From the NCBI GenBank assembly GCA_031292385.1, contig JARLHE010000030.1, positions 48,682 through 80,681 on the forward strand: a stretch of 32,000 nt of DNA, written 5' to 3'. This document shows, in pieces, positions 21,783 to 23,929 of this stretch; within the stretch, counting starts at the first letter, position 1, and every line of letters begins with the position of its first letter. The notes under the pieces were generated by a model. It was given only the letters and a program-made list of their open reading frames with translations. It searched no databases and was not told the origin of the DNA. The translations under genes and the position numbers were made by a program. Origin of the DNA: Oligoflexia bacterium. GTDB taxonomy: Bacteria; Bdellovibrionota; UBA1018.

Positions 21783-21886
21783 AAAAAGGTAGGCCGTACC
21801 TTTTGGTTGAGATATGCGTCATTTTGGAAGGGCTTTTGAAGGAGCTCCCGCTCCGATTAACCAAAAAGGGTACGACCTATTTTTTT
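21783..21886. repeat. Composite palindromic repeat, left copy (inverted partner of 23866-23929)
   Basis: 21783-21821, aaaaaggtaggccgtaccttttggttgagatatgcgtca, matches the reverse complement of 23891-23929 at 37 of 39 positions. The inner unit 21859-21886, aaccaaaaagggtacgacctattttttt, is a degenerate inverted copy of the outer hairpin and is homologous to 23866-23886. The outer unit itself folds as AAAAGGTA-5nt-TACCTTTT with A/T tracts on both sides, which is terminator-like. Confidence 0.8.
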
Positions 21887-21895
21887 GAAATTTGC

Positions 21896-22702
21896 TTATT
21901 CACGGGTAACTCCGAAAAGATCCATTGAATAGCAATACAGCCCTTCCTCGGGCGATTCTCGAATGACTGGACGGATCTGCTCGATAGCCGAGACCATCAG
22001 GGACTTGATTTTAACTAGGTCGCTTTTGGCTAAGGTCACGACCGACGTGTAATGAAAATCGTCGGGGCCGGCCAGATCGAGCGAGCGGAGTGCCTGGATT
22101 CTCCAGTTGGCGTGGTGCTTGGGCAGCATTGGCGAGTCGTTGCCCAGATGAATGCTGGTGGCACCGGTCGTGAAACGCCCTTTCTCTTCGCGCGCGATTC
22201 CGACCGACAACAGGAACTCCAGAGCCGCACTCACGATGGCGGGAGCCAATCCCAAGTACCGCGCAATCGCGTCGCGCGTCTGCAGGCGCGGGATGGTTAG
22301 CGCAAAATGAACCGCCGTGTAGTGCCAAGAACTATAGTAAGTGGCCTGATCGACCGGGTTGAGTGTTTGTTTGTACTTGAGACGGTCCTTGAGAATGAGT
22401 CGGCGCTCCAGAATTTGTTCAATCTTCGTTAAATAATAGCGCTCAAGCTCTGGGCTCCCCGCGCGCGCAAGCAAGACGAGGTTCAAGAAGAAGTCGCTTT
22501 CTTCTCCACTATGGCCGTAATACCGGTTCAGGGATTGCGCCTGCTCCGGGCTTAGGTGTGCGGTACCGCCCAGCACCTGGGAAATGTAGGTCAAATGGCA
22601 GTGGAGGTGTTCGGCGAGCCGTGTGCGTTCGCCGCGCGCACGCTCGTGGATCCGATCGTTCAGATAGGCCCGATAATCGCGGTACTCGAAGAGAGTCTTC
22701 AT
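21896..22702 (-). CDS. TIGR02147 / DUF4423-type protein (N-terminal XRE-like HTH; paralogous family known from Fibrobacter and Bdellovibrio)
   Basis: 268 aa. N-terminus MKTLFEYRDYRAYLNDRIHE...RTRLAEHLHCHLTYISQVLGGTAHLSPEQAQSLNRYYGHSGEESDFFLNLVLLARAG fits my memory of the family pattern (Y.DYR.yL, an HTH with S.vl.G...L, E..YF..LV). Size and architecture also fit. Confidence 0.7.
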   Translation of the reverse strand: MKTLFEYRDYRAYLNDRIHERARGERTRLAEHLHCHLTYISQVLGGTAHLSPEQAQSLNRYYGHSGEESDFFLNLVLLARAGSPELERYYLTKIEQILERRLILKDRLKYKQTLNPVDQATYYSSWHYTAVHFALTIPRLQTRDAIARYLGLAPAIVSAALEFLLSVGIAREEKGRFTTGATSIHLGNDSPMLPKHHANWRIQALRSLDLAGPDDFHYTSVVTLAKSDLVKIKSLMVSAIEQIRPVIRESPEEGLYCYSMDLFGVTRE

Positions 22703-22808
22703 GTTTAGTAAAACTCTACCTTGAAGTCGTTATTTTATAAATATGATCTATTTTTGCGACTTTAAGCATCATAAAAAAGCGCCCAAGTCAGTGCGGGGCC
22801 TTAGAGCT

Positions 22809-22908
22809 GCTCGCACAGTCAGGGGATTTTCCTCTGGGGGCTCCCCACTGGCGAGTAAAGCTTGACGGCTAAAGTCAAGTTAAGGTATCGAGCCGATCCT
22901 GTGCGAGC
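22809..22908 (+). ncRNA. Structured roughly 100-nt leader / candidate cis-regulatory RNA upstream of CDS 22927
   Basis: A perfect 10-bp closing helix pairs gctcgcacag (22809-22818) with ctgtgcgagc (22899-22908). It is extendable by 2 bp including one G-U. Internal hairpins: AGGGGA-tttt-CCTCT or GGGG-gct-CCCC (22821-22846), CTTGAC-ggctaaa-GTCAAG (22861-22879), and GGTATCG-agc-CGATCC (22884-22899). An alternative pairing joins CTCGC (22811-22815) with GCGAG (22851-22855). The structure ends 8 nt before the SD GGAG (22917-22920). Confidence 0.45.
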
Positions 22909-22926
22909 GGAACACTGGAGAAGAAA

Positions 22927-23835
22927 ATGATCGTACGAAATTGGGTGATTCTGGCTTCCTTGCTCTCCTTGCAGGCTGCGCCTCACGCCTTCGCGCTCGC
23001 GGGCGCCGAGGGCAGCGGCGGAGGAAGTCGTATCGAAAGCGCGTTTCGTTTAAGCGGGAGCAATCTCATTCAAGCGGTCGCATCCAATGTCGAGACGAAT
23101 CGGCTATGCCCGTCGGACGTGATGCAGAGAGGACTAGACAGAGCCAAGATCACCGTAGTCAATACGCTGGTCGACGGTAATACGGGCAAGCCGATTGAGG
23201 ATCAGCATTTAGATGCTTGGACCCGGCCCGGATCCATTCAACTTCGGTACGGGGCGTGGGTCCAGTATATCCATGATGACAGCACGTTTGATCCGGCTGC
23301 GACGGATGCCCTTATTTTACACGAAATTTACCGGAGCACCGGCCAGTGCGATGACGATACCGGAGCGCTTTCGACCACGGTATATCAGCTTCTGACACAG
23401 CCGCAAAAGCCCGTGCCTGCGCCGGTGGACCATCAGTTCGACCGTCTTTTCGTCTTTAAATATTCCGTGAATGACTGGCACCCGTACTACACCACGCCAG
23501 CCGGTCACGGGGAAACGATCACAACTGATGTTGAGGCCGCCGCTTGTGAATCACCCTTTAGTTTCAAGTCACCCAAAGCAGGCATTCGTTGCGCGATCAT
23601 TGCGCACGTGGAAGAGGAGGTGGAGTACGCGGTGCTGTTGTTGGTTACCACGACGGCCGATGCAAGCATGCCGTTTTCGGTCATGAGCAAGACCGTGCTT
23701 GGTTGGTCAAGGGGCACCCTGGACAATCAATTAGGATTCGTAGCGCCGAATTCGCCCCTTTATATGATTTTTAATTTTGAGTCTGGCGCGATTTCGTGCG
23801 GCCCCGACCTGAATCACATGACGGGCGTGAACTAA
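22927..23835 (+). CDS. Secreted protein of unknown function
   Basis: 302 aa. GGAG lies 6 nt upstream of the ATG. Signal peptide MIVRNWVILASLLSLQAAPHAFA, then a Gly-rich stretch AGAEGSGGGS. It has several Cys residues. It contains LILHEIY but no HExxH. I recognise no family. Confidence 0.6.
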   Translation: MIVRNWVILASLLSLQAAPHAFALAGAEGSGGGSRIESAFRLSGSNLIQAVASNVETNRLCPSDVMQRGLDRAKITVVNTLVDGNTGKPIEDQHLDAWTRPGSIQLRYGAWVQYIHDDSTFDPAATDALILHEIYRSTGQCDDDTGALSTTVYQLLTQPQKPVPAPVDHQFDRLFVFKYSVNDWHPYYTTPAGHGETITTDVEAAACESPFSFKSPKAGIRCAIIAHVEEEVEYAVLLLVTTTADASMPFSVMSKTVLGWSRGTLDNQLGFVAPNSPLYMIFNFESGAISCGPDLNHMTGVN

Positions 23836-23865
23836 ATCTTGCCGCTCCCGTGAATCACATCTGGC

Positions 23866-23929
23866 AAAAATAGGCGTATCTTTTGGGCGATGACGCGCAT
23901 CTCAACCAAAAGGTACGGCCTACCTTTTT
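23866..23929. repeat. Composite palindromic repeat, right copy; also a probable bidirectional terminator between convergent genes
   Basis: aaaaataggcgtatcttttgg (23866-23886) can pair with ccaaaaggtacggcctaccttttt (23906-23929) across a 19-nt loop. 23891-23929 is the 37/39 inverted copy of 21783-21821. The repeat overlaps the last codons and stop (PPKR*) of the TPR gene on the minus strand. Confidence 0.8.

What the first reader, a model, noticed from the sequence alone, without database searches (positions are those of the whole stretch)
21783..23929. A 2.1-kb two-gene module bounded by composite inverted palindromic repeats splits a Glt-like gliding gene cluster
The segment carrying the TIGR02147-type HTH gene and the divergent unknown secreted-protein gene is bracketed by inverted copies of one composite element.
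- The outer 39-mers (21783-21821 and 23891-23929) match at 37 of 39 positions in inverted orientation.
- The non-palindromic extension GGTTGAGAT..GCGTCA points inward at both ends, which fixes the orientation.
- Each end also carries a degenerate inner unit (21859-21886 and 23866-23886). The two ends differ mainly by a 37-nt versus 4-nt spacer.
- The right copy overlaps the last codons of the TPR gene.
- Outside the brackets lie two operons that functionally belong together: the motor plus TPR on one side, and the GltF/G/H-like genes on the other.

This geometry is what a non-autonomous insertion or an inverted duplication of a terminator-bearing cassette would leave. No transposase or integrase is present.
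Basis: seen in the sequence. Interest (0 to 1): 0.7.

Follow-up and report, generated by a model that had tools for sequence, protein, structure and literature searches.

The report
Gene cassette flanked by hairpin repeats
A two-gene cassette has been inserted into a gliding-motility gene cluster of a Bdellovibrio-like bacterium; the mirror-image hairpins at its ends belong to a repeat family found in many other genomes just behind genes, so the arrangement is real but only moderately unusual.

Summary
Arms 21783-21822 and 23890-23929 match at 38 of 40 positions in inverted orientation, and each end folds into a long hairpin between an A-run and a T-run.

- **Longer duplication.** The similarity runs inward: 139 nt on the left against 94 nt on the right.
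- **Insertion.** Three independent relatives (69, 68 and 54% GltG identity) have the TPR gene directly followed by gltF. The surrounding 22 kb is collinear with L005, so the 2.2-kb module is a lineage-specific gain. There is no target-site duplication and no transposase or integrase in the window.
- **Cargo.** It is a conserved pair: a DUF4423/TIGR02147 regulator plus a rare signal-peptide protein. The pair recurs in five unrelated contexts without such repeats.
- **Not a private terminal repeat.** The outer 40-mer (21-nt palindromic core plus one arm) belongs to a dispersed family. I found 54 distinct copies, up to 6 per contig, mostly 0-30 nt behind stop codons and often between convergent genes. 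The hosts are bacteria of lower GC, including a named Bdellovibrio.

Best reading: an inserted accessory cassette whose two outward-facing gene ends carry inverted copies of a REP-like, terminator-type hairpin. Mobilisation through these ends is possible but unsupported.

The parts
21783..21822 (+). Left outer unit: 21-nt palindromic core (21784-21804, AAAAGGTAGGCCGTACCTTTT) plus an inward-pointing arm (21805-21822, GGTTGAGATATGCGTCAT).
   Evidence: A profile built only from the 51 family copies in other genomes hits it at E = 2e-10, and the match extends into the arm.
21823..21858 (+). Left-only spacer of 36 nt, with a small GGAGC/GCTCC stem. It is absent from the right copy.
21859..21886 (-). 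Left inner degenerate core unit. It pairs with the outer unit to form a ~28-bp stem, and lies 9 nt after the HTH stop codon.
21783..21921 (.). Left copy of the inverted duplication (139 nt). It includes the last ~25 nt of the HTH coding sequence.
   Evidence: 0 of 500 shuffles reach the score.
21896..22702 (-). Cassette gene 1: HTH regulator of the TIGR02147 / DUF4423 family (268 aa).
   Evidence: PF14394 scores 61.6 bits (cut-off 30). TIGR02147 scores 53.9 bits (cut-off 50).
22703..22926 (.). 224-nt divergent intergenic region between the two cassette genes. Presumed promoter and operator region; this is inferred.
22927..23835 (+). Cassette gene 2: 302-aa protein with an N-terminal signal-peptide-like segment. 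It belongs to a rare family with a conserved N-terminal ~140-aa domain containing an invariant LILHE.YR...C.D motif.
23836..23929 (.). Right copy of the inverted duplication (94 nt), starting immediately after the 302-aa gene's stop codon. It contains the inner degenerate core at 23866-23886.
23890..23929 (-). Right outer unit: arm (23890-23907) plus core (23908-23928). The core supplies the TAG stop and the last three codons of the TPR gene.
   Evidence: The family profile hits it at E = 5e-11.
23920..27567 (-). GltD/E-like TPR gene (1215 aa). Its C-terminus (…FYSELLPPKR*) is shorter than in relatives (…FYSELTPASPPTHIKSL*).
21422..21721 (-). gltF/CglF-like small gene, the first gene of the downstream Glt block.
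21689..21736 (-). Conserved sequence upstream of gltF (…CTGACTAAAATAGTTTGC…), shared with relatives that lack the module.
27506..29181 (-). AglRQS-like motor (one MotA/ExbB gene and two ExbD genes) upstream of the TPR gene.

Best explanation
**What it is**
- A ~2.2-kb accessory cassette was gained in this lineage at the 3' end of the GltD/E-like TPR gene, immediately upstream of gltF.
- It encodes a DUF4423/TIGR02147 HTH regulator and, divergently, a secreted ~300-aa protein.
- Because the two genes point outward, both ends of the cassette are gene 3' ends.
- Each end carries a copy of one hairpin-rich segment (139 nt on the left, 94 nt on the right), and this produces the inverted-repeat bracket.

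**What the repeat is**
- The best-conserved outer 40 nt is one unit (21-nt palindromic core plus one arm) of a dispersed, REP-like repeat family.
- In other bacterial chromosomes this family sits 0-30 nt behind stop codons, often between convergent genes.

**How it most likely works (inferred)**
- The hairpins act as transcript-end structures, that is bidirectional terminators or 3'-end stabilisers.
- The right one ends both the 302-aa gene and the motor-TPR operon, and supplies the TPR gene's last three codons and stop.
- The left one ends the HTH gene and shields the conserved gltF upstream region.
- The gliding genes stay expressible on both sides, and the cassette is insulated from them.

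**Shown and not shown**
- Shown: the insertion, the duplication, family membership and placement.
- Inferred: terminator function.
- Unresolved: how the insertion happened.
For: **Insertion**
- TPR is followed directly by gltF in L070 (69% GltG identity), L005/L006 (68%) and L008/L009 (54%).
- 19 of 22 window genes between 9.5 and 31.8 kb have collinear orthologs in L005. The two cassette genes have none.
- Nucleotide homology to L005 ends at 23939 and resumes at 21736.
- The TPR C-terminus is shortened and ends in element-derived codons.
- Cassette GC3 is 0.68 and 0.63, against about 0.73 for the host genes.

**Cassette as a unit**
- The DUF4423 gene and the ~300-aa gene are adjacent in all five other contexts found. 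They are co-directional in four (L010, L013, L014/L015, L016) and divergent in one (L011/L012), with unrelated neighbours.

**Repeat family**
- The core has 53 exact matches in metagenome contigs: 6 on a 772-kb contig, 5 on a 203-kb contig and 3 on a 187-kb contig, tens to hundreds of kb apart.
- Two further matches lie 136 kb apart in a Bdellovibrio sp. ZAP7 MAG.
- Most copies lie within 0-30 nt of a stop codon, many between convergent genes.
- 16 of 54 carry the arm T(A/G)ACGCA-nnn-GCGACACC. The window's arm reads ATGACGCATATCTCAACC, against ATGACGCAACTGCGACACC in L058.
- A profile built without the window finds exactly the two window units, at E = 5e-11 and 2e-10.

**Hairpins**
- Folding energies are -29 to -39 kcal/mol, with A5-7 and T5-7 runs on either side.
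Against: - The copy number of the family in the source genome is unknown. Only these copies occur in the 32-kb window, and none occurs in ~96 kb from its closest relatives.
- Two copies only 2.1 kb apart is unlikely from the family's typical density of about 1 per 35-140 kb, unless the two are linked by duplication or by joint arrival.
- The core stem is AU-rich and weak on its own (-6 to -12 kcal/mol). The simple terminator scan did not call these sites.
- Some family copies sit inside ORFs and are conserved at nucleotide level. A terminator role does not explain that.
- Linkage of the cassette to its flanks rests on one MAG assembly. The independent Logan assembly breaks at both repeats.
Confidence: 0.6

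Rival explanations
1. The bracket marks the terminal inverted repeats of a non-autonomous, MITE-bounded or composite mobile unit. A transposase encoded elsewhere recognised the two 40-nt units and moved the 2.1-kb segment into the TPR-gltF junction.
For: - The repeat ends coincide with the insertion boundaries, within 10 nt on the TPR side.
- The outer 40 nt are far better conserved (95%) than the inner part of the duplication, as expected for recognised ends.
- Two other loci show the same geometry: inverted units 1.1-1.8 kb apart, arms inward, cores outward against outer genes' stop codons, bracketing 2-3 small genes (L068, L058).
- Full and internally deleted forms (139 and 94 nt) resemble MITE size variants.
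Against: - There is no target-site duplication. The flanks read …GACTAGAA and GGAGGCAG….
- No transposase lies in the 32-kb window.
- No gene family recurs within 4 kb of the 54 family copies.
- Most family copies are solitary, and some sit at orthologous positions in related genomes.
- Cassette homologs elsewhere lack flanking repeats.
- Given the family's density, about 2-4 close pairs among the 55 loci are expected by chance, so the L068 and L058 pairs are not significant.
Confidence: 0.2
2. The 21-nt core is primarily a DNA site for a dimeric binding protein (a regulator or chromosome-organising factor) rather than an RNA terminator. Its presence at both cassette ends would then reflect selection for, or conversion to, that site.
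For: - The core is invariant across hosts with 37-58% GC.
- In-ORF copies in LysA align gap-free with solved LysA structures, so they are not insertions.
- Those copies are 27/27 identical between orthologs whose flanks are only 78-80% identical.
- The core stem alone is weak.
Against: - The strong positional bias to just behind stop codons and between convergent genes fits a transcript-end role better.
- Many copies extend into long perfect hairpins whose arms differ in a compensatory way (L029, L031, L061), which points to selection on, or generation of, secondary structure.
- The half-site is not enriched on its own.
Confidence: 0.12
3. The cassette is ancestral at this position and was lost in the relatives examined.
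For: Only three independent relatives could be examined at the junction. L071 (56%) has a different, non-coding sequence upstream of gltF, so the junction is variable.
Against: - Absence at 69, 68 and 54% identity requires at least two independent, clean losses, against one gain.
- The relatives share a similar compact junction, and L005 and L070 share a longer TPR tail that the window lacks.
- The cassette has slightly lower GC3 than the host.
- The cassette occurs in unrelated contexts elsewhere.
Confidence: 0.05
4. The inverted repeats define an invertible (phase-variable) segment that is flipped by a site-specific recombinase.
For: 40-nt inverted repeats flank a 2.1-kb segment. The assembly graph breaks at both repeats.
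Against: - No invertase or recombinase gene lies in the window.
- Both ends are equivalent gene 3' ends, so inversion would not switch any promoter-gene connection.
- A k=31 graph breaks at any 31-nt repeat regardless of inversion.
Confidence: 0.03

Closest known systems
REP / BIME elements and REPINs (mobilised by RAYT transposases) of Proteobacteria
   Same: - Short imperfect palindromes, dispersed in many copies and mostly extragenic at gene 3' ends.
- They occur singly or as inverted doublets that fold into long hairpins. Here the outer core plus the degenerate inner core is such a doublet.
- They can act as terminators or mRNA stabilisers.
   Different: - No RAYT or other enzyme gene was found near any copy.
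- The core is identical across hosts of very different GC content, whereas REP families are usually species-specific (my own knowledge).
- Some copies lie in frame inside ORFs without changing protein length.
- Copy density is lower, at about 1 exact core per 35-140 kb.
Correia elements (Neisseria) and other MITEs, and MITE-bounded composite units carrying cargo genes
   Same: - A ~100-nt element with ~26-28-nt inverted termini.
- Full-length and internally deleted size classes.
- Location at gene ends, with terminator activity.
- Two copies can bracket passenger genes.
   Different: - There is no target-site duplication at the units or at the 2.1-kb bracket.
- No cognate transposase is known or was found.
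- The conserved part is the hairpin apex, not the termini of a longer element.
Uptake-sequence pairs (DUS/USS) that form terminators in Neisseria and Haemophilus
   Same: A short conserved sequence occurs as an inverted pair behind genes, doubles as a terminator, and also occurs inside coding regions.
   Different: The half-site is not enriched on its own: about 19 isolated AAAAGGTA against roughly 10-15 expected. The 5-nt loop is fixed. The unit is therefore the whole hairpin, not an uptake word.
Agl-Glt gliding machinery clusters (Luciano et al. 2011, PMC3169522)
   Same: The context genes follow the canonical order aglRQS-like motor, GltD/E-like TPR, gltF, gltG, OM beta-barrel, gltC-like.
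   Different: In this genome the gltD/E-gltF junction is interrupted by an unrelated two-gene cassette. Relatives have the uninterrupted order.

Membership tests
Intrinsic (factor-independent) bidirectional terminator | A stable stem-loop lies directly downstream of the stop codon(s) of the gene(s) it ends. | tested here: met
   Long hairpins of -29 to -39 kcal/mol. The left one begins 9 nt after the HTH stop. The right one lies between the convergent 302-aa and TPR genes and overlaps the TPR stop.
Intrinsic (factor-independent) bidirectional terminator | A G+C-rich stem is followed immediately by a U-tract on the transcribed strand. | tested here: inconclusive
   A7/T7 (left) and A5/T5 (right) runs flank the hairpins. 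However, the core stem is AU-rich (-6 to -12 kcal/mol), part of the runs pairs within the stem, and the consensus scan did not call the sites.
Intrinsic (factor-independent) bidirectional terminator | Transcripts end at the element in vivo or in vitro. | not testable with these tools
   This needs Term-seq, 3' RACE or a reporter assay.
REP / REPIN-RAYT system | A short imperfect palindrome is dispersed in multiple copies per genome, mainly extragenic. | tested here: met
   There are 54 distinct copies, up to 6 per contig and tens to hundreds of kb apart, mostly intergenic. The copy number in the source genome itself was not testable.
REP / REPIN-RAYT system | A RAYT (Y1 transposase) gene is flanked by the repeats. 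| tested here: inconclusive
   No gene family recurs within 4 kb of the 54 copies, and no transposase lies in the window. Whole genomes could not be scanned.
REP / REPIN-RAYT system | Inverted doublets fold into a long hairpin (REPIN). | tested here: met
   At each window end the outer core pairs with a degenerate inner core. Neighbouring partial cores occur in L019, L056 and L060.
MITE / composite transposon | Terminal inverted repeats bound the unit. | tested here: met
   40 nt, 38/40 matching.
MITE / composite transposon | A target-site duplication lies immediately outside the termini. | tested here: not met
   The flanks …GACTAGAA|AAAAAGG and CCTTTTT|GGAGGCAG… share no direct repeat. Compared with the empty site, the insertion goes with a small replacement of the TPR tail.
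MITE / composite transposon | Other copies of the same bounded unit, or a cognate transposase, exist elsewhere. | tested here: inconclusive
   - The cassette protein has only distant homologs (41% identity or less), on loci without such repeats.
- No transposase is associated with family copies.
- Two similar brackets exist with other cargo (L068, L058), but that number is no more than chance predicts.
Integron gene cassette / attC | An IntI integrase and attI lie nearby, and the cassette ends in an attC with R''/R' core sites (RYYYAAC … GTTRRRY) at the base of the hairpin. | tested here: not met
   There is no integrase in the window. The hairpin bases are A/T runs, not core sites, and the two genes are divergent.
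TIGR02147 / DUF4423 regulator family (cassette gene 1) | The protein scores above the curated cut-offs of both models. | tested here: met
   TIGR02147 scores 53.9 bits against a cut-off of 50. PF14394 scores 61.6 bits against 30.
Agl-Glt gliding cluster (context) | Co-located motor (MotA/ExbB plus ExbD), long TPR protein, small GltF, GltG with a TonB-C/AgmX tail, OM beta-barrel and GltC-like TPR, in canonical order. | tested here: met
   Domain hits are, all below the equivalog cut-offs, so these are Glt-like rather than orthologs. The order matches M. xanthus G1 as tabulated in PMC3169522.

The most novel reading that the evidence does not exclude
The 40-nt arm-plus-core unit may be the working end of an undescribed mobile or self-propagating hairpin element of Bdellovibrio-like bacteria.

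- It would spread to positions just behind stop codons.
- It could overwrite coding sequence in frame without changing length, as in LysA and a 240-aa protein.
- Its loop can flip.
- As an inverted pair, it could capture and move small gene cassettes.

On this reading the window shows one such capture event inside a gliding-motility operon.
Probability: 0.15. Interest if true: 0.7.

Novelty: new member of a known kind. Interest (0 to 1): 0.4.

Why it matters
- **Gliding biology.** A Glt cluster tolerates being split between gltD/E and gltF. The conserved sequence upstream of gltF is therefore a candidate internal promoter. A regulator-plus-secreted-protein pair has also been placed under the same chromosomal neighbourhood.
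- **Genome annotation.** Inverted repeats around a divergent gene pair can arise simply because both gene ends carry the same family of terminator-like repeat. They should not be read as transposon ends without a target-site duplication or an associated enzyme.
- **The repeat family.** The invariant 21-nt core, the one-armed and two-armed forms, and the conserved in-ORF copies appear undescribed. Rfam gave no match, and two literature searches found nothing. The family would be a tractable case for asking how REP-like sequences spread and stay identical across genera.

Tried and rejected
- **Target-site duplications.** I looked just outside 21783 and 23929 and around each ~64-106-nt end. None was found.
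- **Transposase, integrase or invertase.** Pfam and NCBIfam on all 30 sizeable ORFs of the window found none.
- **Integron attC reading.** Rejected: no IntI, no R'/R'' sites, and the genes are divergent.
- **Defence-system or phage origin of the cassette.** PADLOC and PHROGs gave no hits, and the core is absent from viral contigs.
- **Known RNA family.** Rfam gave nothing at gathering threshold. At a permissive threshold there was one sub-threshold chance match in the window region (E 0.46), and only generic long-hairpin (miRNA-precursor) matches on a full family hairpin.
- **Uptake-sequence idea.** Rejected: the half-site is not enriched and the loop is fixed.
- **Association with DUF4423 genes.** Rejected: no homolog of either cassette gene lies near the 54 other copies.
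- **Repeats around cassette homologs elsewhere.** None.
- **Compositional foreignness.** Only a weak GC3 dip.
- **Taxonomic label for the multi-copy contigs.** The RsgA search was inconclusive. The best named hits are at 47-50% identity and include Bdellovibrio and Bacteriovorax, but also Bacillaceae.
- **Technical dead ends.** A global alignment with cheap gap extension scattered the empty-site alignment (redone). MAFFT misplaced the large gap between the two ends (redone with a shuffle control).
- **Literature.** Two searches found no described Bdellovibrio repeat family.
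Full report
**1.

The window contains a 40-nt inverted repeat, 21783-21822 against 23890-23929, that is 95% complementary. 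It is found nowhere else in the 32 kb, and none of 100 shuffles gave two matches.

Each arm consists of two parts:
- a 21-nt palindromic core, AAAAGGTAGGCCGTACCTTTT (an 8-bp stem with a GGCCG loop);
- an 18-nt non-palindromic arm, GGTTGAGAT(A/G)(T/C)GCGTCAT, which points inward at both ends.

Further inward, each end has a degenerate copy of the core (21859-21886 and 23866-23886). Each end therefore folds into one long hairpin between an A-run and a T-run:

| End | Energy on the two strands (kcal/mol) | z-score |
|---|---|---|
| Left | -39.3 / -34.6 | -3.1 / -4.1 |
| Right | -30.6 / -29.1 | -2.4 / -2.6 |

(All.)

Left 21921->21861 aligns with right 23836-23886, scoring 44.75 against 23.1 +/- 4.2 for shuffles, with 0 of 500 shuffles reaching it. 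The duplicated segments are therefore 139 nt and 94 nt.
- The right copy starts directly after the stop codon of the 302-aa gene.
- The left copy includes the last ~25 nt of the HTH gene.
- The outer 40 nt are 95% identical. The inner part is much more diverged and carries a ~36-nt indel.

**2. Context**

- Upstream (27506-29181, minus strand) lie one MotA/ExbB gene and two ExbD genes, followed by a 1215-aa TPR gene (23920-27567).
- Downstream lie a 99-aa CglF/GltF-like gene (21422-21721), a GltG-like gene with an AgmX/PglI tail, an outer-membrane beta-barrel gene and a GltC-like TPR gene.
- This matches the M. xanthus order gltD, gltE, gltF, gltG as tabulated by Luciano et al. 2011 (PMC3169522).
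- Between the two blocks sit a DUF4423/TIGR02147 HTH gene (21896-22702, minus strand) and, divergently, a 302-aa gene (22927-23835, plus strand).
- No transposase, integrase or invertase occurs anywhere in the window.
- The TPR stop codon (TAG, 23920-23922) and its last three codons lie inside the right core.

**3. The module is an insertion**

The source is an NCBI 'Oligoflexia bacterium' MAG.

| Relative | GltG identity | Junction |
|---|---|---|
| L070 | 69% | TPR directly followed by gltF |
| L005 / L006 | 68% | TPR directly followed by gltF |
| L008 / L009 | 54% | TPR directly followed by gltF |

- The TPR-gltF spacers in these relatives are 68-164 nt.
- Over 9.5-31.8 kb, 19 of 22 window genes have collinear orthologs in L005. 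The two module genes are among the three without one.
- Nucleotide homology to L005 ends at window 23939 and resumes at 21736, so about 2.2 kb is extra and the repeat bracket sits just inside it.
- The window's TPR protein ends …FYSELLPPKR*, against …FYSELTPASPPTHIKSL* in L005. The insertion replaced the last few codons, and the element supplies the new stop.
- One gain is more parsimonious than two or more clean losses.
- There is no target-site duplication. The flanks read …GACTAGAA and GGAGGCAG….
- The module's GC3 (0.68 and 0.63) is slightly below the host's ~0.73. This is only a weak hint of foreign origin.
- *Caveat:* the joins rest on one MAG assembly. The independent Logan assembly holds window 21784-23919 as a separate 2136-bp contig that stops at both repeats. 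A k=31 graph would do this at any 31-nt repeat.

**4. The cargo is a conserved pair**

- The 302-aa protein has few homologs: 7 in the word-indexed search, the best non-self hit at 41% identity, and 73 cluster representatives among 1.84 billion.
- In all five other genomic contexts recovered, its homolog sits next to a DUF4423 gene. The pair is co-directional in L010, L013, L014/L015 and L016, and divergent in L011/L012. The neighbours are unrelated.
- None of those loci has flanking inverted repeats.
- The protein has a signal-peptide-like N-terminus, a conserved ~140-aa N-terminal domain with an invariant LILHE.YR…C.D motif, and a variable beta-rich C-terminal half.
- Its AlphaFold2 model (pLDDT 79) has no significant PDB match.
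- PADLOC and PHROGs gave nothing. The cassette's function stays unknown beyond 'regulator plus exported protein'.

**5. The repeat is not private to the module**

- A scan of 185,579 species-representative genomes with a 22-mer of the core found two matches only. Both are on one contig of a Bdellovibrio sp. ZAP7 MAG, 136 kb apart.
- A scan of metagenome contigs with the 21-mer found 53 loci. There are up to 6 copies on a 772-kb contig, 5 on a 203-kb contig and 3 on a 187-kb contig, tens to hundreds of kb apart.
- These are bacterial chromosomes with housekeeping genes and 37-54% GC (one short contig has 60%), against 58% for the window.
- Some of these loci are syntenic with the ZAP7 loci. An RsgA search could not fix the taxon of the multi-copy contigs.
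- Of 54 distinct copies, most lie 0-30 nt from a stop codon, and many lie between convergent genes.
- 16 carry an arm, T(A/G)ACGCA-nnn-GCGACACC, usually on one side only. Five are long perfect hairpins whose two arms differ between loci in a compensatory way, for example L029, L031 and L061, the last at -47 kcal/mol.
- The window's arm reads ATGACGCATATCTCAACC, against ATGACGCAACTGCGACACC in L058.
- A profile built from the 51 non-window copies finds exactly the two window units, at E = 5e-11 and 2e-10. Its match runs into the arm. It finds nothing else in the window or in ~96 kb from the window's relatives.
- No gene family, and no transposase in particular, recurs within 4 kb of the copies. 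No homolog of the cassette genes lies near them.
- The half-site is not enriched alone, and the loop never varies.
- Rfam has no matching family. The core is absent from viral contigs.

**6. Interpretation**

The two cassette genes are divergent, so both cassette ends are gene 3' ends. Each carries a copy of the same hairpin segment, and that alone produces an inverted-repeat bracket.

The position of the family elsewhere, the A/T runs and the folding energies make a transcript-end role the most likely function. That means a bidirectional terminator or a 3' stabiliser.
- The right copy would end both the 302-aa gene and the motor-TPR operon.
- The left copy would end the HTH gene and shield the gltF upstream region.
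- That upstream region (…CTGACTAAAATAGTTTGC…) is conserved in relatives that lack the cassette. The downstream gliding genes therefore probably have their own expression signal.

This function is inferred, not shown. The core stem is weak on its own, and the simple terminator scan did not call the sites.

How the cassette got in is unresolved. The transposon reading has these points in its favour:
- the repeat ends coincide with the insertion boundaries;
- the outer 40 nt are better conserved than the inner part;
- two other loci show the same geometry, with inward arms around 2-3 small genes (L068 and L058).

Against it:
- there is no target-site duplication and no enzyme;
- most copies elsewhere are solitary;
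- the family's density predicts a few such close pairs by chance.

I give the transposon reading 0.2. Ancestral presence with loss in relatives (0.05) and an invertible switch (0.03) are unlikely. A DNA-binding-site role for the core (0.12) is kept alive by the in-ORF copies.

**7. Verdict**

- The repeats belong to a REP-like, terminator-type family rather than being the signature of a specific mobile element.
- The finding is a new member of a known kind. It is moderately interesting, mainly because of the apparently undescribed repeat family and its odd in-ORF copies.

Noticed in passing
L004 7270-7290 and L063 1735-1755 (LysA-like gene); L003 7468-7488, L049 1256-1276 and L051 1793-1813 (240-aa protein gene): - The 21-27-nt palindrome lies in frame inside two unrelated genes of Bdellovibrio ZAP7-like genomes, encoding …AKGRPYLL… or …PKGTAYLL….
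- In LysA it aligns essentially gap-free with solved LysA structures (no gap against two, a single-residue gap against the third), so it is not an 8-codon insertion.
- It is 27/27 identical between orthologs whose flanks are only 78-80% identical.
- In L051 the 5-nt loop is flipped relative to L003 and L049.
- A terminator role does not explain these copies.
   Followed up: partly
L029 4234-4298, L031 5798-5862, L061 1109-1173; also L025 and L060: Some family copies are perfect ~59-nt palindromes (-47 kcal/mol). Their two arms differ between loci in a compensatory way (TCA/TGA, TCG/CGA, ACT/AGT). This suggests either selection on the hairpin or a copying mechanism such as template switching that makes one arm from the other.
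   Followed up: partly
L068 406-426 and 1538-1558; L058 ~2203 and 4012-4032: Two other loci have inverted copies 1.1-1.8 kb apart, with arms inward and cores abutting the stop codons of outer genes. They bracket 2-3 small genes of unknown function, which is the window's geometry. The number of such pairs is no more than chance predicts from the family's density.
   Followed up: partly
L071 1-965: In a 56%-identity relative, about 960 nt upstream of gltF have no TPR homology and no convincing ORF, although the conserved CTGACTAAAATAGTTTGC motif is present. The TPR-gltF junction may be a recurrent site of rearrangement, or this Logan contig may be chimeric.
   Followed up: partly
window 22927-23835 and its homologs P0122-P0193: The 302-aa protein defines a rare family: 73 representatives among 1.84 billion. 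It has a conserved N-terminal ~140-aa domain (invariant H132-E133, C141, D143), a variable C-terminal half, no Pfam family and no PDB fold match. In every context examined it sits next to a DUF4423 regulator.
   Followed up: partly
window 14303-16493: The block of response regulator, histidine kinase and GreA-like gene is inverted relative to L005 and L007. The adjacent 257-aa gene (13522-14295) has no ortholog in L005, which has a metallo-beta-lactamase-fold gene there. No inverted repeats flank this rearrangement.
   Followed up: partly
Logan contig L001 = window 21784-23919: The contig's right end stops at 23919, which is 9 nt short of where the 31-mer shared by the two window copies would break a k=31 graph. 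This hints at a further sequence in that sample sharing the right-copy arm, either a third copy or a strain variant.
   Followed up: no
window 2201-5493: A separate Tol-Pal-type set (TolB, a TonB_2-domain protein, ExbD/TolR and MotA/ExbB/TolQ) lies in the same window. The window therefore holds two different ExbB/ExbD-type motors, and only the one at 27506-29181 belongs to the Glt-like cluster.
   Followed up: no
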